From: a virus | Lineage: Duplodnaviria > Caudoviricetes | Length of the DNA: 37,547 bases | Reading direction: 5' to 3' (one strand) | IMG/VR virus record: IMGVR_UViG_3300018080_000343 | Location: 1 to 37,547 of that record | In this document: positions 3,914 to 35,496 of the stretch, one piece after another | Layout of the letters: the number at the start of each line of letters is the position of its first letter | Position numbering within the stretch: position 1 is the stretch's first letter | The notes under the pieces: model-generated | Seen by the model: the letters and a program-made list of their open reading frames with translations, nothing else | The model's database searches: none | What the model was told of the DNA's origin: nothing | Position numbers and translations under genes: made by a program

Positions 3914-4366
3914 TTATTCGACCTCTTCGAATTGAATTTTTACCTTCTGGCCGCGGAAAGTAATAATCGCCCCTCGCATGTCGCAGTTGCATAATATCGC
4001 CCTGGACAAATCCGCTTCGGATAAATTCGCTTCGTACAAATTCGCCCTGGATAAATTCGCTTCGTACAAATTCGCTTCGTACAAATTCGCCCTGGATAAA
4101 TTCGCTTCGGATAAATTCGCCCTGGATAAATCCGCTTCGGATAAATCCACTTCGCACGAATTCGCCCTGGACAAATTCGCTTCGTACAAATTCGCTTCGT
4201 ACAAATTCGCCCTGGATAAATTCGCTTCGGATAAATTCGCCCTGGATAAATCCGCCCTGTACAAATTCGCCCCGGATAAATTCGCCCGTTCGCCGCCCTC
4301 TTTCGATTCCAGCCATAACATGTGCTTTCTCAGCACCTCTGCCAATTCTTCTGCCGTCATCTTCAT
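3914..4366 (-). CDS. pentapeptide repeat protein
   Basis: ELAEVLRKHMLWLESKEGGERANL N-terminus, then tandem A(N/D)L(S/Y)(E/R) pentapeptides (15-nt DNA repeats, about 3999-4290); start moved to ATG 4366 (MKMTAEEL). Confidence 0.92.
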   Translation of the reverse strand: MKMTAEELAEVLRKHMLWLESKEGGERANLSGANLYRADLSRANLSEANLSRANLYEANLYEANLSRANSCEVDLSEADLSRANLSEANLSRANLYEANLYEANLSRANLYEANLSEADLSRAILCNCDMRGAIITFRGQKVKIQFEEVE

Positions 4367-4733: not shown

Positions 4734-6539
4734 TTAAAATAATTCCTCATTTTCCTCATCCTCATCCAAAAATAAATCAATCGGTGTCCACCAAAATCGC
4801 CGATGTTTCGTTCGCTGAGCTTCGGCACCCGGAACTCGTTGCATGATTTCCGCGATCGACGATCTATTCCAGCGAGTTTTCGCCAACAGGTGCCGCTTTA
4901 CCCTGGTTGTGTTTACCCTCACGCCGTCACCGACGACAACGAGCCCACATTTATCTAGTGCTTTTTCTGCGTCCGTACGCTGGCTGGAATAGCCGTCACG
5001 CACAATTTCGATTAGTTGCTCCACCGACAGCCGGCCCAACTCTCGGCCTGCGTCAACGTGCGAGGAGCGGAGGGTTTCGAATAAATCCTCTGCGTCGGCC
5101 ACTACTTCGCGAGTCATCACTTCCGAATTTTTGACGAAATCCCGCAACACTGACTCGCCGCTCACGCCGATCGCAAGAGCGAACATTGCCGCAGGGACGC
5201 TGTACGTTTCTGTAACGCGATTCGAGAAACCATCCAGCTCCAGGCCCCCTATCTCGCCCGCAAGCGTCACAGCGTCGCGTACGAGCCTCACGGAGGTTGC
5301 CAATAATTTCAGCCCGACGGCCTCGCACTCCGTCTGCGTCGGCTGAATTATCGTTGGTGATCCGGGGGCTTTCGGTAATAATTCAATTCTCACAAATCGG
5401 TCAGCGTCAGTTTTTGTGGTCAGCCCCGATTCAATTCCAGCCAGCCAGAATATTTGTGAGAGTGCTTTTTCTGATCGGCCCCGCCCCTCACCGGTCCACC
5501 GCTCGTCTTCTCCCCGGCCGGCTGGTCGCACCACAGTCTCGATGATATCCTCTCGGTGCGGATTTTTATCGAGTTCGTCCATCACGGCAATTTTCGCCGA
5601 CGATCGGCAGTGCTTCATTATTCCGATTGCCGTTGTTTTCCTGCTGGCAGATTCCGCCAATCCGCAAAACATTCGCTTCAGCATCCGGAAAAAAATAGTC
5701 TTGCCGCTGACGGTTTCGCCGGTGATCGCGACTTGTGGCCGCCAATCCCAGAATTTTTGCACCCATGTTGCGAGGATCAATCCTAACGCGAGTTCGGCCC
5801 CTTTGTGAAATTGATACCGCCATCGCCTGAGAAGCCCCAGAGCATCGAGCACGGCCTGCTCATCTGATTTCTGGTTGCCATTTTCGATCAGCCGGCGAAA
5901 TTGGCAGTTGTCGCAGTCCCGCGAAGTGCAAAACCAATTTGGGTTCCCGGCCAGGTCGTAAAGACGCCCGTCGCATCGCGGCATGGCGTCGCAAATTAAA
6001 TGCTCACCGTTCCAGATCGATTTCCAGCCATCGCCGACGAGAACCACATTCCGGCCGCTTTCCCAGCAGCCGGCTTCCCGCTTCGAATCGTCAACTAATT
6101 TCGGCCGGCGCCCGGCTGCGTCGGCGATCAGCATTCGCACTTCCTCCAGTTGCATCATGCCGGCTCTGGATTCTGAGCCGCGGTGAACCTTCGCCTTGAC
6201 GACCGCCTTTGTGCAAATTTGAGCGAGTCGAGCCATCTTGATCCGCTCGATGTCGCGAATCCGCGTAAACTTCCGGGTTGTGGTACAAAATACCTCCACC
6301 GATCCGTCCTCATATTCGCCGATTACATCGAGCCCCAGTTCGGCCAGCATCGCATCGTCGGCTGTCTGCTCCTCTTCTTTTGCCCTGGCCGGTGTGTAGA
6401 CTTCTGACCGATCTCGCATCGCGATCAGTTCGCGGGCGATGTCGTCGCGAGTTTTGCCGGCTTCTCTCTGGCCAATAATCCACTCGCGAATATCGCCAGA
6501 CGGCGGAATGATCTTGCGGACTTCCATGCCACAACTCAT
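4734..6539 (-). CDS. primase-helicase C-terminal part (end of Toprim plus P-loop helicase)
   Basis: Begins VRKIIPPSGDIREWI, resembling the last Toprim strand/helix; Walker A ITGETVSGKT; Walker B IAVMDE. Confidence 0.75.
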   Translation of the reverse strand: MSCGMEVRKIIPPSGDIREWIIGQREAGKTRDDIARELIAMRDRSEVYTPARAKEEEQTADDAMLAELGLDVIGEYEDGSVEVFCTTTRKFTRIRDIERIKMARLAQICTKAVVKAKVHRGSESRAGMMQLEEVRMLIADAAGRRPKLVDDSKREAGCWESGRNVVLVGDGWKSIWNGEHLICDAMPRCDGRLYDLAGNPNWFCTSRDCDNCQFRRLIENGNQKSDEQAVLDALGLLRRWRYQFHKGAELALGLILATWVQKFWDWRPQVAITGETVSGKTIFFRMLKRMFCGLAESASRKTTAIGIMKHCRSSAKIAVMDELDKNPHREDIIETVVRPAGRGEDERWTGEGRGRSEKALSQIFWLAGIESGLTTKTDADRFVRIELLPKAPGSPTIIQPTQTECEAVGLKLLATSVRLVRDAVTLAGEIGGLELDGFSNRVTETYSVPAAMFALAIGVSGESVLRDFVKNSEVMTREVVADAEDLFETLRSSHVDAGRELGRLSVEQLIEIVRDGYSSQRTDAEKALDKCGLVVVGDGVRVNTTRVKRHLLAKTRWNRSSIAEIMQRVPGAEAQRTKHRRFWWTPIDLFLDEDEENEELF

Positions 6540-6748
6540 CTTAAATGCGGAAAATCATATCTGTCGCCGCTGTAATCACGCACAACCGTTATCCCGCCAT
6601 TGCGAGTATTCACCACGTCGAAATTTCTATGTGCTGCCTCTTGCCACGGTTCCCAGCCCGCTTGGATCTCCGCACACATCGCACGAATCTCATCTTCGTC
6701 CGGCACAAGGTCACAACCACGCCCGCTAGGATTCGGATCAGCAATCAT
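6536..6748 (-). CDS. small hypothetical protein between the primase halves
   Basis: 70 aa, PDEDEIRAMCAEIQAGW motif; overlaps both flanking ORFs. Confidence 0.6.
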   Translation of the reverse strand: MIADPNPSGRGCDLVPDEDEIRAMCAEIQAGWEPWQEAAHRNFDVVNTRNGGITVVRDYSGDRYDFPHLR

Positions 6749-7655
6749 CGCATAACACCCCTATAGCTTTGTCGGCACCGCGATTGCCAACCTCGTCAGA
6801 ATCGCCAACCACGACAACCGATTTCCCTTCGAATGCCTTCCGCCATTCAGCCGGAAACGATCCGGCCCCGCAGACGTTGGCTACGGCAATGTCTGCGGCT
6901 GGAATAACACCCGCCAGTGCGAGAGCATCGGTTGTGCCCTCACATTTCCAGACCGACTTCGCCACTTGGAATTCATCCGGCGTGCCGATCACGACTAACC
7001 CATCGCCCTTGCAGCCGAGCATATGAGCCTTTCGCTCTGGCAGGCTTCCATACGATGAAAACGGCTGCCCGTCAGCCCGATAAATAATATGCCCCTTCTC
7101 TCGCCACGTCAGTGGATCGAATACGACAAACGCCAGCACTCGTTGCCGATCTTCGCGGTATGCCGCCTTGGGCCACCATGCAGCCGCCCATCGCACGCGA
7201 AAGAGTTGTGATGCCTCAATGCCCTGCTTCGCTCGAAGCCACGTTGTAGCCCACTGTCGCTTGTCCACGTCGCGGAAACTGAGCGAGTCATCAGCCGTGT
7301 TTTTCCTGGCAGACTTCAGCCCCAGGTAATCTGCGATTCGCTGGCAAGCCTCTTTGAAATCCACATCAAGCATCCACTGCACAGCCGCAATTCCGTCGCC
7401 CGATTTTGGCGACGTGTCTCCGTTGTGGCAGTGCGAGCAAAAAACAGCACCAACCAATTCATCGAGCATCCGAAACCGAGTTGACCCGCCGCATTTTGGG
7501 CAGGGGTGTTCTCGTTTTGAGCCGTCCAGGATGTCGGATGGGATACCGCCCAGAGAGGAAAGGATTTCCCGCCAACGTCCGGCTGCGGCTTGCTTGATGT
7601 CGGAGGCTTTCATCTGCAGTTTCCGGTCTCCCGATATTTTCAAGTAAAAGACCAT
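6738..7655 (-). CDS. DNA primase N-terminal part (Zn ribbon plus Toprim)
   Basis: AAGRWREIL, HPCPKCGGSTRFR...CSHC zinc ribbon (P4-alpha/TraC-like), Toprim CEGTTDALAL and VVVGDSD. Confidence 0.85.
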   Translation of the reverse strand: MVFYLKISGDRKLQMKASDIKQAAAGRWREILSSLGGIPSDILDGSKREHPCPKCGGSTRFRMLDELVGAVFCSHCHNGDTSPKSGDGIAAVQWMLDVDFKEACQRIADYLGLKSARKNTADDSLSFRDVDKRQWATTWLRAKQGIEASQLFRVRWAAAWWPKAAYREDRQRVLAFVVFDPLTWREKGHIIYRADGQPFSSYGSLPERKAHMLGCKGDGLVVIGTPDEFQVAKSVWKCEGTTDALALAGVIPAADIAVANVCGAGSFPAEWRKAFEGKSVVVVGDSDEVGNRGADKAIGVLCDDC

Positions 7656-7661
7656 TCTCCG

Positions 7662-7988
7662 TCAGACACGCTTGCCGCCGTGGCGGTAGCCACGCTGACG
7701 ATTCTTCTCCAGCTTCGCACGGACCACGGAATCGAAATCGTCCGTGAACGCGGCCACACAATCCAGGACACGGATCACGATGTCGGCCATTTCTTCGATG
7801 AAATTCTCGCCGTCGTCATGCCGGAAGGCTTCAAGAGCTTCGGACACTTCACTATGTATCAATGCCAGAATTGCAGGCACCTTGTATGCGCCGCCCCATT
7901 GTTCTGGCTGCGTCACGTTCCACCCGTTCCCCTCGTTTATCTGCCGGATCTCTTCTGCCAATTGCTGCAGCACTCTGTTCTCCGTCAT
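7662..7988 (-). CDS. MazG-like nucleotide pyrophosphohydrolase
   Basis: LALIHSEVSEALEAFR...EEMADIVIRVLD...KLEKNRQRGYRHGGK signature. Confidence 0.88.
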   Translation of the reverse strand: MTENRVLQQLAEEIRQINEGNGWNVTQPEQWGGAYKVPAILALIHSEVSEALEAFRHDDGENFIEEMADIVIRVLDCVAAFTDDFDSVVRAKLEKNRQRGYRHGGKRV

Positions 7989-8236
7989 CAGATAACCTCT
8001 TCTTCTTCCTCTGGCGACGGCATCCCCATGTCATCCATTCGCACAACGCGGATTGCCGGCAGGTTGTATCCTTCTGATTCGTAATCGTTTTTTGATGGAT
8101 GCTTTCCGCCCCATCTGCTTTTTCTTTTTCTCGCGAGATTCTCACGCCGAATTTTGCGGCATTCCCTCGCGATTTCAGCCGGAGTCGGGCAGTAACGGCA
8201 ATTGATTATCACCCCGTCTGGATCTACCGTTTGCAT
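7988..8236 (-). CDS. small hypothetical protein (related to 6536-6748)
   Basis: PTPAEIARECRKIR motif; start provisionally moved to ATG 8236. Confidence 0.5.
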   Translation of the reverse strand: MQTVDPDGVIINCRYCPTPAEIARECRKIRRENLARKRKSRWGGKHPSKNDYESEGYNLPAIRVVRMDDMGMPSPEEEEEVI

Positions 8237-8729
8237 GATTGTGCTTCCATACTTTTTCGAGCAGGCGAAACGCGAATAACTCGGCACGTCGCCGGCTACC
8301 GGGGAAATGAAAACTTACTCGCGGATACCGTACCATCCAGGAGGTTACAGTTGCCGCGGCTGCGTGAGGGTGAAATTCCGAACGCCAGTCGTTGTGATAT
8401 TTTTCCGGGCTGCAAAACTCTGGCCAACTCGCCTCGACAATCACCCACGTTTTTCGAAGCGAGAAATTCATGTGCTCGATTTGCTCGCGGAAAGCGTCGC
8501 GTCCGCACTTTGGCGACAGCGAGAGGTACGCATCATTCAGGCTTTTTCGCTCGATCGAAAACTCCGGGATACCTTCCACCTGGTAGTCACCCTCGTCAAT
8601 CGGCAGCCGGATTTCTCGCGTCTGAACTTCGACTGGCTGCATACGCGACTTGATCAGCATTTGGCAATCTTGAAAGAGCCACGGAGCACCTTCGTTTGTG
8701 TCAACTAAAATCGTGAATGGAGTTTTCAT
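8175..8729 (-). CDS. ERCC4/XPF-domain nuclease
   Basis: ILVDTNE, GDY, IERKS motifs (GD-x-ERKxxxD). Confidence 0.85.
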   Translation of the reverse strand: MKTPFTILVDTNEGAPWLFQDCQMLIKSRMQPVEVQTREIRLPIDEGDYQVEGIPEFSIERKSLNDAYLSLSPKCGRDAFREQIEHMNFSLRKTWVIVEASWPEFCSPEKYHNDWRSEFHPHAAAATVTSWMVRYPRVSFHFPGSRRRAELFAFRLLEKVWKHNHANGRSRRGDNQLPLLPDSG

Positions 8730-8914
8730 TTTTTGATTCGATCACGCATGTATCGCAACAAGCCGATCAAATTCTGACGAAACCGCTGTCTTCCTTCACG
8801 CTTTGAATCTGCTTCGGGGAAATGTGCAATGTCGTTGTTCAAACAATCCCACGCATTTTGATTTTCGACGAGAAAATCAAAGTCAATATCAATCAGGTGT
8901 TTATCGTACAGCAT
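8726..8914 (-). CDS. hypothetical protein
   Basis: 62-aa ORF overlapping both neighbours in the operon. Confidence 0.5.
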   Translation of the reverse strand: MLYDKHLIDIDFDFLVENQNAWDCLNNDIAHFPEADSKREGRQRFRQNLIGLLRYMRDRIKK

Positions 8915-10223
8915 CTTCCAGCTCCCTCATTTTTTCGACGGCCATTGTCTTGCGTTTCCACAGGTGCGACTTGCGGCACCAGTCGCTTAGCGTCTGAGGT
9001 TTCGCGATGCAAACACAGAGTTGTTTGGCCCGACTGATTCCCGTGAGAACCCAGTGCCGATCGCATAGCCACTTAGCCCCGCTGCTTTCATCGCCGACGA
9101 CGAAAACAACCGGAAATTCTGCCCCTTGCGATTTATGGCAACTTATCGCATACGCCAATTCCCACTTGCCGGTGTCATCATCACCGCTGCTTCGCGGCTT
9201 ACTCACTCGCACAAGTCGATCTGGCGTATCAAGCTGGCAGATCGTGTTGCCGCCGTCAACTTCAATCACACGGGCCTGCTCGCCGTTGGCGACGTACACC
9301 CGCCGCTGATCATTCATCTCTTCACTGGGACAGCCAGGGGCAGCGAGATACCAGCCGTTTTTGCCGCACACGATTTTGTCGCCTTCGCGGTACGGGTTAC
9401 CCTTCGCCTGCTTGCCGGTTGGATTGAGATAGCCTTGCAGCATCGGGTTGAGTTTCTTCCGGCTGACTTCTGATTTTTCGTTGAGGGGCACAATCACCTG
9501 AGCATGCCAGATGGGGTCAACAACATCCTGCGACCAGTCCCATGCCGCTGACGTTGGATCGAGCCAATCGCGTAGCGCCTGCGTCTGTTCTGCCGGATTC
9601 TTCCACTCGCGATCAACGTGCAGATTCTCGCCTGCCGCCAGGTCGATTTCTGGCGAGTGTTGCCACTTACCTTCTTCCGCTATCAGCTTGCAGGTCTTCA
9701 CAATCCGGCCGGCGTTGCGGTGGATTTCCGTGAGGTGTCCACGCGGAACTCCCAACGCAATCATATCGCGGAATGGGGCACCGTGACCGACTGGCGGTAG
9801 CTGGTTCGGGTCGCCGATAAACAGGACATGGCCACCTTTCCGCCGTGCTGCCAGGAGGGAAGCCATCAGCGACGAGTCAATCATGCTCGCCTCGTCCACG
9901 AAGACAAACTGATGAGGTAGCGGGTTGCTCCGGTTATAACCGAAGTATCCGGCACCCTCCAGGTACGTGTAGGCGAGCAGCCGGTGTATCGTGGTGCAGT
10001 CTAGCCTGATGCCTTGCTCGCCGAGTGCTTCGGTCATTCTCCTGGCAGCCTTACCAGTCGGTGCCGCCCCCGCCATTCCGCTGCTGCCGTTGCGTTGGCG
10101 TAGCTGGCGGATCAGGTGCCCAAGGCAAGTAGTCTTGCCGCTGCCGGGTCCGCCGGTGAGTAGCCCCACCGTGCCGATGGTTGCGGAGTTGAGGGCGTCG
10201 AGTTGGTGGGCGGTTAGTTGCAT
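8901..10223 (-). CDS. recD2: RecD2-like SF1B helicase, C-terminal (motor) half
   Basis: Q motif LTAHQ, GGPGSGKTT, AAPTGKAARRM, TIHRLL, VDEASM, GDPNQLPPVG, LTEIHR, AYAISCHKSQGAEF, TGISRAK. Confidence 0.9.
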   Translation of the reverse strand: MQLTAHQLDALNSATIGTVGLLTGGPGSGKTTCLGHLIRQLRQRNGSSGMAGAAPTGKAARRMTEALGEQGIRLDCTTIHRLLAYTYLEGAGYFGYNRSNPLPHQFVFVDEASMIDSSLMASLLAARRKGGHVLFIGDPNQLPPVGHGAPFRDMIALGVPRGHLTEIHRNAGRIVKTCKLIAEEGKWQHSPEIDLAAGENLHVDREWKNPAEQTQALRDWLDPTSAAWDWSQDVVDPIWHAQVIVPLNEKSEVSRKKLNPMLQGYLNPTGKQAKGNPYREGDKIVCGKNGWYLAAPGCPSEEMNDQRRVYVANGEQARVIEVDGGNTICQLDTPDRLVRVSKPRSSGDDDTGKWELAYAISCHKSQGAEFPVVFVVGDESSGAKWLCDRHWVLTGISRAKQLCVCIAKPQTLSDWCRKSHLWKRKTMAVEKMRELEDAVR

Positions 10224-11206
10224 CCAAATATGTCCCCAATATCATTCGTTCGCTGCAACCCGGCGACACGTTCGGCGACAGCGTAGCACTCAACACCTCA
10301 CAATCCCAAACCAATCATTCGTTCGCTGCAACCGGCAGGTCCTCTGGTACGCGACCTGCCAGGGCGATCTCACAATCCCAAACCAATCATTCGTTCGCTG
10401 CAACACCGATGAGCCAATGGCCGATGAAGAAACGCTCCTCCTCACAATCCCAAACCAATCATTCGTTCGCTGCAACTAAATCGGCGGCTGTTCCACTGAC
10501 TGTCGACCATCAGACTCACAATCCCAAACCAATCATTCGTTCGCTGCAACGCAGACGCGAAGCCGAACGCGAGCCGGAGTTCCACGCTCACAATCCCAAA
10601 CCAATCATTCGTTCGCTGCAACTTCCCCGATGGCAACCATCAATACTACCGCCAATCCAACTCACAATCCCAAACCAATCATTCGTTCGCTGCAACTACG
10701 CGACGCGTGGGGGCGTCTGGCGGACATACCCCCTCACAATCCCAAACCAATCATTCGTTCGCTGCAACCGAGTCATCGTTCGGGGTTCGATCACCCAAGC
10801 GAGCCTCACAATCCCAAACCAATCATTCGTTCGCTGCAACTTGCGGCCTGCGATAAGGGCTCCATCCTTTAGCCGGCACCTCACAATCCCAAACCAATCA
10901 TTCGTTCGCTGCAACCATCACAAAGGTTACTACATCAGCGTACTGCGGAACTCACAATCCCAAACCAATCATTCGTTCGCTGCAACGCGAAGGAAAGCGG
11001 CTTGCAGCGATACATGCCCGCCTCACAATCCCAAACCAATCATTCGTTCGCTGCAACAAGCCACGTCCGCGCGGCGGCGGCGTCCGCCAGTCCCCCTCAC
11101 AATCCCAAACCAATCATTCGTTCGCTGCAACCTCCCTAAACGTAGCCGGAACCTCTCCGGAACCTGGCCGCTCACAATCCCAAACCAATCATTCGTTCGC
11201 TGCAAC
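10224..11206 (-). CRISPR. CRISPR array: 13 identical 36-nt repeats plus one degenerate trailer repeat, 13 spacers of 35-39 nt
   Basis: Plus-strand repeat CTCACAATCCCAAACCAATCATTCGTTCGCTGCAAC starts at 10297, 10369, 10441, 10515, 10587, 10661, 10733, 10805, 10880, 10951, 11022, 11096 and 11171; partial copy at 10241-10259. Transcribed sense inferred as GTTGCAGCGAACGAATGATTGGTTTGGGATTGTGAG because the degenerate copy is distal to the effector gene. Confidence 0.98.
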
Positions 11207-11488
11207 TCCGTCGCCATAAGTCCTTTCGCCACAACGGGCCAAAGACATACTTGCGAGAGCCCCCTGCCGATTGGCACCTCTTCCAACCTTCCTTGCAAGT
11301 CCCAGCTTCGGAAACTCTTGCTCAGAAGGAAGTTCTGACACGCGAGCGGTTCCCGGCCTCACAAATCTACGGCACTGCTCGCAAATCGGTAACTGATCAG
11401 ATTTCACCATTTGCAAAAATCTTTTGCGCGACAGTCGCACCGACTTGCCACACACTTCGCATGGCAACTCACGACGAATCTTCGCCAT
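11189..11488 (-). CDS. small Zn-ribbon protein (CEVC...CEQC) overlapping the CRISPR leader
   Basis: ATG 11488 (MAKIRRELPCEVCGK) with GGGAG upstream, overlapping the effector stop; the frame stays open through the leader and stops inside the first repeat. Confidence 0.5.
   Translation of the reverse strand: MAKIRRELPCEVCGKSVRLSRKRFLQMVKSDQLPICEQCRRFVRPGTARVSELPSEQEFPKLGLARKVGRGANRQGALASMSLARCGERTYGDGVAANE
11207..11330 (-). promoter_or_regulatory. putative CRISPR leader
   Basis: Lies between the effector gene and the first perfect repeat, at the opposite end from the degenerate repeat; boundaries approximate. Confidence 0.5.
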
Positions 11489-12614
11489 TGTCAATATCTC
11501 CCAGTCGCAATTTGCGAACCTTGACTTCGATTCCACGACGCGCTGCCGCATTTTTCAAATCGTCCAGCCATCGCGTCCAGTTCCAAGTCAAGCCGTTTGC
11601 CTCGAACCAGCATTTTTCTTTGGTTGGATTGGTGGGTTCCAGGTACTCCAATACGCCACAGCGATGCCGCTCGCATTGCTTAACCACATCTACGATTGCC
11701 CGCCGTCGCACCTCGGTCACAATGTCGGCAAGTTGAAGATTGCGCTTCGATACCGCGATATCTATTTTCTTTCGTCCGTGCCCCGCCCCCATTCGCTGCC
11801 GATATCTCCAGCCAATCTGTTTTCGCACGCCGACTAAGCGAAGTGTCTGCGAAATCAGGTACCGTCCTGCACCAATTCCCCAGGCACGACTACGCCCCGG
11901 AATCTCTAGCGAAAACGGTCGCTCGATTTCTCCTTTGCCGATCACCGGTGACAATGTAGCTATTCGATCAGTATCAAGTTGTTCCGTTTCAAACGCGACA
12001 GGAATATACCAGTACCATTTCCCGCGACGCTCAAGCAATTTCGAGTCGGCTAGTTTGCGTTCACCTCTTGCCAAGTCATGGATAATCCGCTTAATGCCAG
12101 TCGGCACGCCCTTGAGTGAGATTGTAAAGTCCAGCGAAATCTGCAAACTATTTCGCATGATGTTGCGAACATGGACTTGCACATCGTCCTCAAAGACAAT
12201 CGTGGTATGTTTATTTGCGATAGGCACTGACAAATCCGTGTAAAATGCCGGCCGTTCCTCACGCCGCAGAATCGCATCTTTTCGTTTCGGTCTTTTGCCG
12301 TTATCCGCTACACCCTTTCGCCAATCTACCTTAGCAGCCAGGAAAGAATTGACCTGTTGGGCAATGTTGCTTGCAACATCGGTGCCAAGTCGCGGTACAG
12401 ACGTTGTAATTGCATGGTAAAGTTTTGTTGATTCCGACAAGGGCTTGCCTTGTCGGTTTAATTTCGCTTGTTTGGCTGATTCCTTCCGGCCGCGAGCCCG
12501 CAATAGCCAGTCTTCGCTGGCTACATTGCGGGCCTCGCGACACAGACGAGCAACTTCTGTCAGCTCTGCCGGCGGATCAGTCAACTTCAATTTCAAAACT
12601 GTTATTGACTTCAT
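11469..12614 (-). CDS. Cas12f/TnpB-like type V effector, predicted nuclease-dead and C-terminally truncated
   Basis: KWYWYIPVAFE (WED strand), LDTDRIATLSPVIG where RuvC-I (LDPDxxxGVDLG) is expected, GHGRKK, IVDVVKQCERHRCGVLEYLE (RuvC-II region), W...LKNAAARRGIEVKV; ends without the Zn finger or the RuvC-III D; adjacent to the array. Confidence 0.85.
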   Translation of the reverse strand: MKSITVLKLKLTDPPAELTEVARLCREARNVASEDWLLRARGRKESAKQAKLNRQGKPLSESTKLYHAITTSVPRLGTDVASNIAQQVNSFLAAKVDWRKGVADNGKRPKRKDAILRREERPAFYTDLSVPIANKHTTIVFEDDVQVHVRNIMRNSLQISLDFTISLKGVPTGIKRIIHDLARGERKLADSKLLERRGKWYWYIPVAFETEQLDTDRIATLSPVIGKGEIERPFSLEIPGRSRAWGIGAGRYLISQTLRLVGVRKQIGWRYRQRMGAGHGRKKIDIAVSKRNLQLADIVTEVRRRAIVDVVKQCERHRCGVLEYLEPTNPTKEKCWFEANGLTWNWTRWLDDLKNAAARRGIEVKVRKLRLGDIDNGEDSS

Positions 12615-13117
12615 ACCGGCATCAATTTCCCTCTCCGTTCAAGCTCGACGATTCGTCCCTCCAAAATTCCCCGCTGTCGCTCGCTCTCGTCAAGACGTTC
12701 GCGAAACATCGCAGCTTGCTCGCGATACTCTTTCACGTTCGCTTCAGCTTGATCCAGTTTCAACTGGAGTTCTTTGGCCAGAGCCTTCCAATTTGTCTTC
12801 TGGATTTCACCCGCTTCTTTCGTTGGCGTTGCCAGATCGATCATGGCCCATACGTTGTATTGATATTCAGCCCATGTCGATTTTTTCGGATTGGCTCGAT
12901 AGGCTCGAACCAGTTCTGATACCGATGGCGAACCGCCAAAATGCGCGAATTCCTCTTCCTGCAAATGATCCATCAATTGTCCTTCTCCTCCGAACTGGTC
13001 GACATACTCTTTGTCGGCCAGCAGTTCGTCAACCAGTTGCAGCATGCGAAAGATATTCTCTCGCGATTGTTTGGCGAGCTTCTTTAATTCTGCTCGCTTC
13101 TGTCCACTCGTACTCAT
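12611..13117 (-). CDS. unknown helical/coiled-coil protein, translationally coupled to the Cas12f-like gene
   Basis: 168 aa; ATGA overlap at 12611-12614; heptad-rich C-terminal third (WKALAKELQLKLDQAEANV...LEGRIVELE); AAGGA RBS. Confidence 0.8.
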   Translation of the reverse strand: MSTSGQKRAELKKLAKQSRENIFRMLQLVDELLADKEYVDQFGGEGQLMDHLQEEEFAHFGGSPSVSELVRAYRANPKKSTWAEYQYNVWAMIDLATPTKEAGEIQKTNWKALAKELQLKLDQAEANVKEYREQAAMFRERLDESERQRGILEGRIVELERRGKLMPV

Positions 13118-13157
13118 TTCATTTTCCTTTCAAAAACGAAGACTTAAAACAGGAACC

Positions 13158-13321
13158 ATCAATCAGACACAGCCGCTCGGTTTGGGATTTCCGCGTCCTG
13201 ACGTAATCCACATCGCGGATTTACGGAATTTGGCGAGAGGTCCGGCTGTCACATTAAGACCTCCGGCTGCTCGCCATTCGGGCTGTGAGCACCCGTTTGA
13301 CTACGGCTGTGCCTGATTGAT
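13158..13321 (-). ncRNA. putative tracrRNA/scaffold RNA
   Basis: 18-bp closing inverted repeat (13158-13175 and 13304-13321; the only mismatch is G-U on the minus strand), internal hairpins, 13-nt anti-repeat at 13177-13189 and a loop CUCACA (13284-13289) complementary to the repeat 3' end UGUGAG. Confidence 0.75.
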
Positions 13322-14283
13322 TGCTCCCACTTCGCCTCTCCCGCCAAACCAAAATCATCATCCAGTTCGTGCCAAGCGACATGAAGATCGGACACCCACG
13401 AAGATTCAGCGTCAGCTTTCGCTGACTCGGCGTACCATCGTCGCCCATCGCCATCCACCCGCTCGCGGATCATGTCCCGCTCGATTGCATCGGCTATCGC
13501 TTCTCGCACCTGGACAGTAGCTCCCGCGATCTTCGCGTCTAGCTCTTTGCGAATCACGCTTTCGAGAAGCCACGTGCTACCAGAAGAATCGGATTCAAGA
13601 GCGTACAGGGCACAATGCGTCTGCCGGATCAACGCGCCCATCGGCAAGCCAAGTGACTCGTATAGCCGATCACAGAGCAAAAACCCACAGCCGGCAAACC
13701 CGCGAAGCACATACGGATTGTCGCGGATCACCTGCACTGCACTTTCGCCCCACGCCTCGATGCATTTCTGCGAGGTTGACTTTGGAAAACCGCGATTTGC
13801 CAGAAGCCCCTCAACCTCAATCGTGATTGCTTCCAGTGCTTTTCTGGCAGAGAAAAACGACGATGCAGCCTCAACCGTCGTGACATTGAGGCTGCATCGC
13901 TTGGCCACGCTGGCCGGCTCAAGTCGCAATTTCTCTAGTGCCAGCTCTCCAAATTCTGCGACGATCTTGATTGCTGCTTGCGGACCGATGCCGTTTGCCT
14001 TTTGTAAATATCGCTGGATGGCTTGCAGGTCGGTCGGCTCAACCGGAGTAAACGAAGAAAATTGAAACTGCCGACCGAACCTATCGTGTGTTTGCACCCG
14101 CCCCAGAAACCGATACTTCTCACCCATGCACAGCGAGCCGGCCTTGGCATTTCCTACTACCGTTTGCCCGTCTCGCATTTTGCCAACCACCCAGCGATCA
14201 GCCGAATCGTCTTCGCCGATCGCCCGGTGTTCGTGGGAGAAGATCCCGATTAGTTCTTCGGTTTTTGGGGTTACGACTGGCAC
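13249..14283 (-). CDS. recD2: RecD2-like helicase, N-terminal half (OB-like plus HhH domains)
   Basis: HDRFGRQFQFSSF...IQRYL...GIGPQAAIKIVAEFG, VIRDNPYVL..FAGCGFLLCDRL, SGSTWL motifs of the RecD2/YrrC N-terminus; no P-loop; the last about 25 codons read into the RNA element. Confidence 0.85.
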   Translation of the reverse strand: MPVVTPKTEELIGIFSHEHRAIGEDDSADRWVVGKMRDGQTVVGNAKAGSLCMGEKYRFLGRVQTHDRFGRQFQFSSFTPVEPTDLQAIQRYLQKANGIGPQAAIKIVAEFGELALEKLRLEPASVAKRCSLNVTTVEAASSFFSARKALEAITIEVEGLLANRGFPKSTSQKCIEAWGESAVQVIRDNPYVLRGFAGCGFLLCDRLYESLGLPMGALIRQTHCALYALESDSSGSTWLLESVIRKELDAKIAGATVQVREAIADAIERDMIRERVDGDGRRWYAESAKADAESSWVSDLHVAWHELDDDFGLAGEAKWEQSIRHSRSQTGAHSPNGEQPEVLM

Positions 14284-33333: not shown

Positions 33334-35496
33334 TTACCATCGGCCTCTTGTGAATTGTCCGGTTGTCGGCACCGCTGCAACTGGGGCAGGCGTCGATCTT
33401 CGCGCCTTGGCGGTCGGTGCCACCTTTTCTATCGTGCGGGTGATCGGCTCCAGACGCTCAATACCTCGCATAATGCGGCCAAGGATCGTCAACGCCGTGC
33501 TGTCCAAATAGTGATTCTGTTTTCGCACCTTCCACCAGCCGAGCCGGTTTTTCTTCCAGCCTTTTTCGAAGCGTTCCTCCCAGATTTCCGCCGTCACCTG
33601 AAACGCAAAGGTCTTGTGCGGCAATCGCGTGTCCGTCTCGAACACCCGAAGCGAGCCAGTGTAGCCCGTTTCTGTGAGAAACCCTGAATGCACTTGCAGC
33701 TTAAATGTGTCAGGGTCAAAAAGAATTACGCCTTCCTTACTGGCGTGCCATCCAGGTCCACCAATGTCCGCCCATTGCGGCCGGCGGTATGGGCTCCAAC
33801 CTTTCGTTGGAATAAATCGGAGCGTACCGACTTCCCGGCAGAACTTCCGCACGGGCTGCTCTTTCCAAGGCTCCTCTTTCCACCCCTCGTCGATCGCGAT
33901 CAAATCGACGTGATAGGGCAGTTTGTCGATCACCTCTGTTTTCCAATCGTGCAAAGCGTTGTAGATGCACAGATCCATTGTTTCGATAGGCAAGCCGGCA
34001 GAATGGAAATCGAAAAAATCGTAGTCCACGATCGAGCCGGCAGCCTCCGAGTTCCACGCGGTAGTGGTGTACTCCAGACCGGCCTTGCGAATGTCGACGC
34101 CGCAGACGATTCCCGTCGCGTCGTCTGGGATCTCCTGGCGTTTCAGCCCGGACCCACACTGATACATGATATGATCTGGCGTCAAAATCAACGGCTGCTC
34201 GGCATCTGCCGGCGGGTCGTTTTGGTGTTCCGTAAGAAACGAATCCATGCCGTTGTCGGCGATGTAGTCGTAGCATTTCTGCAGCGCCGATAAGTGCTCT
34301 GGCTGCTTGTCGTCGAGTAAATCGGTGTTGTAGTCGTGCCCCGAAGACATCTCGCAGCCAGCGTGCATTTTGTCGAATCGTTCCCGCAGAAAATCACGGG
34401 CTTCGCGGGCGTGCTTGTCATGCGGCTGTCGGTTGCGGCGTAGCTCAATATATGTCTCCCACAAATCGAGCCGATCGGGCCATTTGATGATTCGCGGGAC
34501 TCGCTGACCGTCCCAGGATGGCTTCTCGTCCCGGTCGGTGTACTGATAGGCCGCTGAACGCCGGCTAGTGATCGTACAGATAAACACCTTGCCAAGCCGC
34601 TTGTTCGGTCCGCCCAGCCCCGCGACAGTCTTGTCAATGCAATCCTCGATCTTTCCGGCTATTAGCCCTTGTTCGGCTGCGAGGCTGTCTCGGCTGTCCA
34701 GGTCGTCGAGCATAACGAAGTCCGGCCGGCGGTCGTAGATATTGAGCCCCTGAAGCGAATCAGACGAGAACCCCAAGCACATCAACACCGGCCCCAACTC
34801 GGTTTCGTTTTTGGGCAATCCGTACTTGACGGTCGCGTACTTCCCCCGCCCGTCCGGCAGACTGGGCAGCACGACGTGTTGCGGTCCCCACTCGACCCGG
34901 ACGGGCAACCCGCCCCATGTCACGCTGCGAGCCCTCGACGGTGCCGGCGCGATGTAGCGGCAGATCGATGTCTCAAACGGAAAATCCTCGTGCAGCTTTT
35001 TGTTGGTGATAGTCCGCAGCTTTGCCTTAATGTCACGCAAGATCTGTTCGCCCTTGGTTGTCGTGGCTGCGAGAATCAGCGGAAACTTCAGTTGCCGATA
35101 GAGAGCGTACTTGAGTTGGAGGTACTTGAGGATGGTAGACTTCCCGCTGCCTCGCGGCATCGCCATTGCCTTCGATGTGCCGTATCGAATCGCCCGGCCG
35201 CAGTCCTCGATGAATTGCTTTTGAGCGCTGGTGAATGGAGCATAGAACACATCGGGGAAATACGTGCGCAGGAACTTTTGGTCGTCCTTCTCGCAAGCTC
35301 GACGGCGTCGCGGATTCTGAACGATGCGGGCGGGAATGTCGCGACCCGACGACCGCATCTCCCGCTTGCGAATCGCGTCGGCTGCCCGCACTTTGTCGGC
35401 CTGCTCCGCTGGCATCCCCTTGAGCGCAGCCTTCAGTTTTCGCCGTTGCTCCTGCAACTTGCGGTCTGCGGCTCGTAGTTCTTCGATGGTTGGCAT
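33334..35496 (-). CDS. terL: terminase large subunit (GpA-type)
   Basis: Walker A AMPRGSGKST, Walker B VMLDD, FLTEHQNDP, nuclease CGVD, IAIDEG, NHYLDS; start moved to ATG 35496 (TAATG coupling). Confidence 0.9.
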   Translation of the reverse strand: MPTIEELRAADRKLQEQRRKLKAALKGMPAEQADKVRAADAIRKREMRSSGRDIPARIVQNPRRRRACEKDDQKFLRTYFPDVFYAPFTSAQKQFIEDCGRAIRYGTSKAMAMPRGSGKSTILKYLQLKYALYRQLKFPLILAATTTKGEQILRDIKAKLRTITNKKLHEDFPFETSICRYIAPAPSRARSVTWGGLPVRVEWGPQHVVLPSLPDGRGKYATVKYGLPKNETELGPVLMCLGFSSDSLQGLNIYDRRPDFVMLDDLDSRDSLAAEQGLIAGKIEDCIDKTVAGLGGPNKRLGKVFICTITSRRSAAYQYTDRDEKPSWDGQRVPRIIKWPDRLDLWETYIELRRNRQPHDKHAREARDFLRERFDKMHAGCEMSSGHDYNTDLLDDKQPEHLSALQKCYDYIADNGMDSFLTEHQNDPPADAEQPLILTPDHIMYQCGSGLKRQEIPDDATGIVCGVDIRKAGLEYTTTAWNSEAAGSIVDYDFFDFHSAGLPIETMDLCIYNALHDWKTEVIDKLPYHVDLIAIDEGWKEEPWKEQPVRKFCREVGTLRFIPTKGWSPYRRPQWADIGGPGWHASKEGVILFDPDTFKLQVHSGFLTETGYTGSLRVFETDTRLPHKTFAFQVTAEIWEERFEKGWKKNRLGWWKVRKQNHYLDSTALTILGRIMRGIERLEPITRTIEKVAPTAKARRSTPAPVAAVPTTGQFTRGRW

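What the first reader, a model, noticed from the sequence alone, without database searches (positions are those of the whole stretch)
12611..13117. Unknown 168-aa coiled-coil protein between the tracrRNA and the effector: candidate new Cas accessory
Seen: lies inside the cassette boundaries, ATGA-coupled to the effector gene, with a helical N-terminal domain (FAHFGG, TWAEYQYNVWAM) and a coiled coil of about 55 residues; I recognise no family. Inference: coupling suggests a stoichiometric partner, for example an oligomerisation adaptor or a recruiter of RNA polymerase or the helicase.
Basis: partly seen in the sequence, partly recalled or inferred. Interest (0 to 1): 0.7.

Follow-up and report, generated by a model that had tools for sequence, protein, structure and literature searches.

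The report
Dedicated partner of phage dead Cas12f
This small phage gene travels with a predicted non-cutting miniature Cas12f-type protein, a zinc-finger gene and CRISPR guide RNAs across distantly related phages, so it is likely a dedicated part of an RNA-guided system that would block rival phage DNA without cutting it; its exact job is untested.

Summary
The 168-aa gene (12611-13117, minus strand) is real and is a CRISPR-linked accessory. The cassette splits a RecD2-like gene. All 13 loci found through the effector, across two clades about 20% identical, carry this gene and the zinc-finger gene. All 12 other loci found through close homologues show effector, array or tracrRNA. Its divergence tracks the effector's (Mantel r 0.89). 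The ATGA overlap is not conserved (3 of 11 loci) and the helicase is only the insertion site. One spacer matches a terminase gene of a related phage. Best reading (0.45): a dimeric co-effector whose helical head and zipper-like tail reinforce cleavage-free, RNA-guided blocking of competitor phage DNA. Physical partnership is inferred, not shown. No paper found describes this three-protein module, but V-U24 (Cas12 plus HTH) could not be excluded. Earlier scan notes report similar modules on other DNA.

The parts
12611..13117 (-). Accessory gene (the finding): 168 aa, helical head (about 1-98) plus coiled-coil tail (110-164)
   Evidence: linkage
13152..13327 (-). tracrRNA-like RNA: long closing stem, two internal hairpins, split anti-repeat (CTCACA pairs with the repeat 3' end; AATCCCAAACC pairs with the repeat body)
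   Evidence: inverted repeat I6
11469..12614 (-). Cas12f-fold effector, 381 aa, predicted nuclease-dead (RuvC-I D and RuvC-II E replaced; zinc finger and RuvC-III absent)
11189..11488 (-). Conserved small C4 zinc-finger gene, 99 aa; overlaps the effector end and stops inside the first repeat
10241..11206 (-). CRISPR array: 13 full 36-nt repeats plus a truncated distal repeat, 13 spacers of 35-39 nt
10841..10879 (-). Spacer 5: matches the sense strand of this phage's own terminase gene at 30 of 39 nt with the encoded peptide largely kept, so probably taken from a related phage
33775..33813 (-). Terminase large-subunit stretch homologous to the target of spacer 5, preceded by TTT
13249..14283 (-). 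N-terminal half of the RecD2-like helicase gene, broken at the 5' end of the tracrRNA stem (flank)
8901..10223 (-). C-terminal half of the RecD2-like helicase gene with its own ATG (flank)

Best explanation
The 168-aa gene is a conserved member of a phage CRISPR cassette built on a Cas12f-fold protein that lacks its catalytic residues, and its product is likely a dimeric co-effector that would join the guide-loaded effector and the zinc-finger protein on target DNA and turn binding into a stable block of a rival phage's genes. Shown: cassette anatomy, co-occurrence, co-divergence, tracrRNA-repeat covariation, loss of RuvC residues, one spacer matching a phage terminase gene. Inferred: dimerisation through the C-terminal coiled coil; contact of the helical head (weak resemblance to DUF3102/plasmid-partition helical domains) with the effector or flanking DNA; silencing of transcription or replication as the outcome.
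For: Effector-first: 13 of 13 loci carry this gene and the zinc-finger gene (4 clade-1 viral; 5 clade-2 viral; 4 in host-genome assemblies). Accessory-first: 18 rows collapse to 12 distinct loci besides this phage; 9 show the effector, and the other 3 end within about 400 nt and still show the tracrRNA. The link holds although the effector clades are only 19% identical and gene order is shuffled. Pairwise identities track the effector: Mantel Spearman 0.89 over 11 loci, 0.63 within 7 clade-1 loci. By contrast the non-complex HTH of dCas12f-sigma loci tracks poorly (R2 0.19; PMC13472631 passages). The effector cannot cut by the canonical site: 0 of 100 homologues have a RuvC-III-like motif and 1 of 100 a tail CxxC (alignment). 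Spacer 5 matches a terminase gene at 30 of 39 nt against shuffled bests of 24-26; one clade-2 spacer matches a ParB-like ORF of another cassette-bearing phage at 24 of 29 against 20-21 (borderline). Atlas leads: DUF3102 and Plasmid_parti_N clusters at 0.85-0.88, TM 0.44.
Against: Co-inheritance of a mobile cassette gives the same co-occurrence and Mantel signal without any contact, and the all-loci value is inflated by the two-clade split. Only 2 of about 70 spacers examined found a candidate target. The DUF3102 lead is under the tool's bar and no Pfam match supports it. The putative HTH region is acidic (residues 29-60, mean net charge -7.7), unlike most DNA-reading heads. Dead Cas12m and Cas12c silence without partners (PMC12669027 passages), so a partner is not required for a roadblock. 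One genome holds a repeat-guide, zinc-finger and accessory copy without effector, plus a fragment, and one assembly has the gene with repeats but no effector found. Genomic context is unknown for most of the 321 representatives.
Confidence: 0.45

Rival explanations
1. It is a stand-alone autoregulator of the cassette (a dimeric transcription factor binding its own promoter), like the HTH proteins beside dCas12f-sigmaE.
For: Helical head plus zipper-like tail; Atlas leads to DUF3102/partition-type helical domains; first gene after the tracrRNA in most clade-1 loci; precedent in PMC13472631 (passages).
Against: It co-diverges tightly with the effector, whereas the published HTH genes do not; it is the last gene in clade 2; in two host loci the single guide itself matches the cassette's upstream region, so RNA-guided self-control may already exist.
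Confidence: 0.17
2. It bridges the bound effector to RNA polymerase or a sigma factor and so switches target genes on.
For: The second-best structural match of the effector is dCas12f of the sigmaE system (Z 21.9, rmsd 4.8, 313 aligned). An ECF-sigma-like gene (label by eye, from recall) lies directly upstream in 2 of 4 host-genome clade-2 loci. Conserved acidic surface at residues 29-60.
Against: No Sigma70_r2 match in 10 of 10 phage records; the two candidate spacer targets lie inside coding sequence; multi-spacer arrays with variable spacers look immune-like.
Confidence: 0.13
3. It is a triggered downstream effector: target recognition activates it (with the zinc-finger protein) to arrest the cell or the invading phage by a route other than DNA blocking.
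For: A dead effector with a full array needs some output; strict retention of two extra genes over deep divergence.
Against: No enzyme, toxin or membrane family match; conserved residues are mostly core hydrophobics, with no evident catalytic set across the wider family.
Confidence: 0.11
4. It serves guide supply or mobility: recruiting host Cas1-Cas2, assisting crRNA/tracrRNA maturation, or helping the cassette insert at new sites.
For: The cassette has no adaptation gene or transposase yet has diverse spacers and sits at different places in different phages; here it splits recD2 exactly at the start of the tracrRNA stem.
Against: No nuclease or recombinase signature; it is retained in two host loci that have only one repeat-guide and no array.
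Confidence: 0.1
5. It recruits the neighbouring RecD2 helicase, or is an ordinary phage gene that happens to lie in the cassette.
For: Location inside a split recD2 gene in this phage.
Against: No RecD2 hit in the fetched flanks of the other clade-1 cassettes; intact recD2 elsewhere in a related cassette-bearing phage; no match in 50,697 GenBank phage records for this protein or for one distant homologue; linkage in 13 of 13 effector loci.
Confidence: 0.04

Closest known systems
Type V-F CRISPR-Cas12f (AsCas12f1, OsCas12f; PDB 8DZJ, 8J12, 9NZQ)
   Same: Effector fold (VIA Z 23.7, rmsd 4.6, 336 aligned; Foldseek E 2e-19), size, tracrRNA with split anti-repeat, array.
   Different: RuvC inactivated and truncated; two dedicated small partner genes; phage-borne without adaptation genes.
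dCas12f-sigmaE RNA-guided activators and array-linked dCas12f of Bacteroidota (PMC13472631, passages seen)
   Same: C-terminally truncated dead Cas12f; a helical partner gene nearby; some dead Cas12f keep arrays and are proposed repressors.
   Different: No sigma gene in the phage loci; arrays retained; the partner co-diverges with the effector, unlike their HTH; Planctomycete-associated; extra zinc-finger gene.
V-U24 (PMC10691335, passages and supplement text)
   Same: Described as a Cas12 branch with altered catalytic site, associated with an HTH protein of unknown function.
   Different: Identity could not be tested: accessions are in a figure and Zenodo tables not readable here. No zinc-finger partner or tracrRNA is mentioned in the text seen.
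Cas12m (V-M) and Cas12c cleavage-free silencers (PMC12669027, passages)
   Same: Interference by guide-directed binding instead of cutting.
   Different: Larger single effectors with no comparable accessory pair; Cas12m uses no tracrRNA (recalled).
Cas12k CAST and CasMu-V (PMC10910872, passages)
   Same: Dead Cas12 that works with partner proteins.
   Different: No transposase in or beside the cassette.
DUF3102 (PF11300) and Plasmid_parti_N (PF01672) helical domains
   Same: Nearest Atlas clusters by features and by structure.
   Different: Scores under the bar; no HMM match; acidic head; fixed zipper-like tail and CRISPR linkage.

Membership tests
Cas accessory gene (CRISPR-linked) | Stable linkage to an effector and CRISPR RNA across diverse loci | tested here: met
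   13 of 13 effector-first loci; 12 of 12 accessory-first close loci show effector, array or tracrRNA
Cas accessory gene (CRISPR-linked) | Functional requirement for, or physical part in, the CRISPR activity | not testable with these tools
   needs deletion and co-purification
Type V-F (Cas12f) | Compact effector with Cas12f fold | tested here: met
   381 aa
Type V-F (Cas12f) | tracrRNA pairing with the repeat, and a CRISPR array | tested here: met
   (computational; no RNA data)
Type V-F (Cas12f) | Intact RuvC triad and C4 zinc finger in the effector | tested here: not met
   RuvC-I D aligns to V224 and RuvC-II E to L325; RuvC-III-like motif in 0 of 100, tail CxxC in 1 of 100
dCas12f-sigmaE | Truncated nuclease-dead Cas12f | tested here: met
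dCas12f-sigmaE | Adjacent co-evolving sigmaE gene | tested here: not met
   0 of 10 phage records match Sigma70_r2 (2 of the 10 are at least 90% complete); a sigma-like gene only in 2 host loci of clade 2
V-U24 | Membership of the published branch (listed accessions) | not testable with these tools
   Fig. S2 accessions and Zenodo tables not readable
V-U24 | Partner is an HTH-domain protein | tested here: inconclusive
   helix-turn-helix-like geometry at 45-75 in the model; only weak Atlas leads
DUF3102 (PF11300) | Match to the Pfam model over its cut-off | tested here: not met
   not among the 25 families shown for 76 wider members
DUF3102 (PF11300) | Shared fold | tested here: inconclusive
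   TM 0.44 over residues 1-109 between predicted models
CAST V-K / CasMu-V | Transposase genes with the dead effector | tested here: not met
   the cassette holds three ORFs only; none of the 27-30 window proteins scanned is a transposase

The most novel reading that the evidence does not exclude
A three-protein class 2 CRISPR effector: dead Cas12f finds the site, a free-standing zinc-finger protein replaces the lost C-terminal finger, and this zipper protein is loaded at the R-loop and polymerises or bridges along DNA, giving programmable long-range silencing of competitor phages. The same core was re-used next to an ECF sigma factor in Thermoguttaceae chromosomes.
Probability: 0.27. Interest if true: 0.88.

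Novelty: new variant of a known kind. Interest (0 to 1): 0.72.

Why it matters
Class 2 CRISPR systems are defined by one effector protein, and dead Cas12 variants with obligatory partners have each revealed new biochemistry (transposition by Cas12k, transcription by dCas12f-sigmaE). Here a dead Cas12f keeps two small unknown proteins across deep divergence with neither transposase nor, in phages, sigma factor, so the output is probably a further mechanism. The whole system is under 3.1 kb with a defined tracrRNA, repeat and a candidate T-rich PAM, so it can be tested directly in a laboratory strain and could give a very compact programmable DNA-binding or silencing tool.

Tried and rejected
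Complex prediction of effector + zinc-finger + accessory protein gave no answer (score 0.00, controls not folded): no evidence either way. A profile search of PDB sequences gave only generic coiled coils. No RNA holder was listed for the locus. Contigs of four DNA runs showed no empty-site joint; the one joint is a collapse of the array between repeats. Array searches against GenBank phages and plasmids gave only chance-level hits. Seed-level self-targeting in phage records is not enriched: 26 of 96 seeds against 98 of 480 shuffles. The G184 C2 match to the single guide lies in coding sequence and is taken as chance. A tracrRNA pattern scan of viral contigs gave 47 rows, of which 2 were known loci and 45 were dropped as unrelated. 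Clade-1 effector was not found in genome contigs. A phylum-wide sample gave 0 of 401; the Gemmata order gave 1 of 267, coiled-coil-only hits that were dropped; in the Pirellulales sample 31 of 34 hit genomes were coiled-coil-only and dropped. No Rfam family fits the RNA. No sigma-70-type promoter in the cassette region. Usable DUF3102 sequences for a profile comparison were not obtained. A search for close relatives of the RecD2 C-half found only this phage. Source names and cluster members of the distant homologues could not be looked up.

Full report
Setting. The window is a 53%-complete phage record with head, tail and replication genes on the minus strand. A cassette of about 3.1 kb interrupts a RecD2-like helicase gene: the N-half is 13249-14283 and the C-half 8901-10223. 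A related phage has the same gene intact, with no stop between the two halves. In reading order the cassette holds a structured RNA (13327-13152), the 168-aa gene, a 381-aa gene, a 99-aa zinc-finger gene and an array of 13 full repeats plus a partial one.

The observation. The ORF, its motifs and the ATGA overlap are as described. The model has a six-helix head and a 55-residue helix. No curated family claims it. The word-based search gave 19 proteins including itself; the profile search gave 321 representatives at E <= 0.001, of which 32 are at 1e-30 or better and 150 were listed. The wider family keeps the head, a short R-x-x-W-K motif and an L-x-G-R motif at the end of the coil. Atlas leads point to DUF3102 and plasmid-partition helical domains but stay under the tool's bar. 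Residues 29-60 are strongly acidic across 43 close members.

The effector and RNA. The 381-aa protein has a Cas12f fold (Foldseek E 2e-19 to AsCas12f; VIA Z 23.7 to AsCas12f and 21.9 to dCas12f) and weak PADLOC matches to Cas12u3 and Cas12f. Against OsCas12f the RuvC-I aspartate falls on V224 and the RuvC-II glutamate on L325. Among 100 homologues none has a RuvC-III-like motif and one has a CxxC in the tail, so the family is predicted nuclease-dead. The upstream RNA is conserved in 12 loci, with 33 of 45 pairs changed on both sides and 91% of cells paired against 35-44% for slid controls (structure derived from the same alignment, so partly circular). In 9 of 9 loci the repeat pairs best with its own locus's RNA. 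It is a tracrRNA by computation.

Linkage. Accessory-first scans returned 4 viral and 14 metagenome rows, which collapse to this phage plus 12 distinct loci. Nine show the effector; L007/L008, L011 and L018 end within about 400 nt of the gene and still show the tracrRNA. Effector-first, all 4 clade-1 viral loci carry the accessory and zinc-finger genes. A search with the distant-family profile found full-length hits in 4 of 261 genomes of the family of a Thermoguttaceae genome (3 genomes in a 401-genome order sample), which points to Planctomycete hosts for the family; this phage's own host is not shown. Those loci revealed a second effector clade (47 proteins; 19% identical to the first, probability 99.9). 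All 4 clade-2 effectors in genomes and all 5 clade-2 viral loci have both small genes. Exceptions: a second copy without effector and a fragment in G184, and G348, where repeats, zinc finger, accessory gene and an RNA run to the contig end and no effector was found in the assembly. Accessory identity follows effector identity (Mantel 0.89, p 0.0002, 11 loci; 0.63, p 0.024, 7 clade-1 loci). Gene order varies and direct overlap with the effector occurs in 3 of 11 clade-1 loci. Context remains unknown for most distant representatives.

What it targets. Of 39 clade-1 spacers tested against fetched records, one stands out: spacer 5 of this array matches the phage's own terminase gene at 30 of 39 nt, sense strand, after TTT, with the peptide largely kept, which indicates a related phage as the source. 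Of 31 clade-2 spacers, one matches a ParB-like ORF (label by eye) of another cassette-bearing phage at 24 of 29, a borderline result. In two host loci a single guide matches the cassette's own upstream region. These fit RNA-guided binding used for inter-phage conflict and self-control, but the target set is small.

Mechanism. I commit to a co-effector role (0.45): a coiled-coil dimer joins the guide-bound dead Cas12f, probably with the zinc-finger protein, and strengthens a block on target DNA. That the gene is a dedicated part of the system I put at about 0.93; the step from linkage to physical contact and to silencing is inference. Rivals are autoregulator (0.17), polymerase or sigma bridge (0.13), triggered arrest (0.11), guide supply or mobility (0.10) and helicase partner or passenger (0.04).

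Comparison with print. I read passages of PMC10910872, PMC12669027, PMC10691335 (supplement search and part 1 of 5) and PMC13472631. None of the passages describes a dead Cas12f with this gene pair. Eight searches (listings and abstract starts only) found no such paper. Unseen material could change this: V-U24 (altered catalytic site plus HTH partner; accessions only in a figure and Zenodo tables), the 188-module list and supplement PDF of PMC10910872, and the 2025 paper on twelve type V variants, which is not held. Earlier notes of this scan describe phage dead-Cas12f modules with two helper genes and a zipper-tailed partner on other DNA; they agree but are unchecked, and sequence look-ups with this protein and its effector found nothing.

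Verdict. Real, CRISPR-dedicated, mechanism open: a new variant of type V-F-derived dead-Cas12 systems with two accessory proteins. Interest 0.72.

Noticed in passing
window 11189-11488 (-): Conserved C4 zinc-finger gene, the third protein of the cassette; its ends often overlap a terminal repeat (stop inside the first repeat here, start inside the last repeat in L264). May be the finger lost from the effector's tail.
   Followed up: partly
L247 (G115) 9910-13400 and L248 (G184) 5930-9150: Chromosomal clade-2 loci: ECF-sigma-like gene, tracrRNA, effector, a single repeat-guide, zinc finger, accessory gene. The guide matches the cassette's own upstream region (16 of 17 nt in G115; 12 of the first 15 at the like place in G184), suggesting RNA-guided self-control.
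   Followed up: partly
window 13327 and 10223-10259: The cassette splits recD2 exactly where the tracrRNA stem begins; the C-half has its own ATG just past the truncated last repeat, so the helicase may be made in two pieces. A related phage has the intact gene.
   Followed up: partly
window 13338-13352 (-): The first 15 nt of spacer 8 match 13 of 15 just upstream of the tracrRNA, in a stretch that also resembles the repeat. Such seed matches are at chance level overall, but the position is striking.
   Followed up: partly
L019 7215-7480: Array of 14-nt mini-repeats (only the part that pairs with the tracrRNA) with short, partly duplicated spacers.
   Followed up: no
L266 and L267: Two large phages (122 kb fragment, 364 kb) carry two effector paralogues with duplicated tracrRNA but one accessory and one zinc-finger gene.
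   Followed up: partly
P0018, P0019, P0076, P0084; L017 164-961: About 255-aa variants keep the head but replace the plain coiled coil with a longer tail; L017 shows one beside the effector.
   Followed up: no
L003 10700-10890: Second mini-array with a different repeat after the effector; no tracrRNA seen upstream of the accessory gene in this locus.
   Followed up: no
window 3946-4320: 15-nt tandem repeat, 18 copies in register.
   Followed up: no
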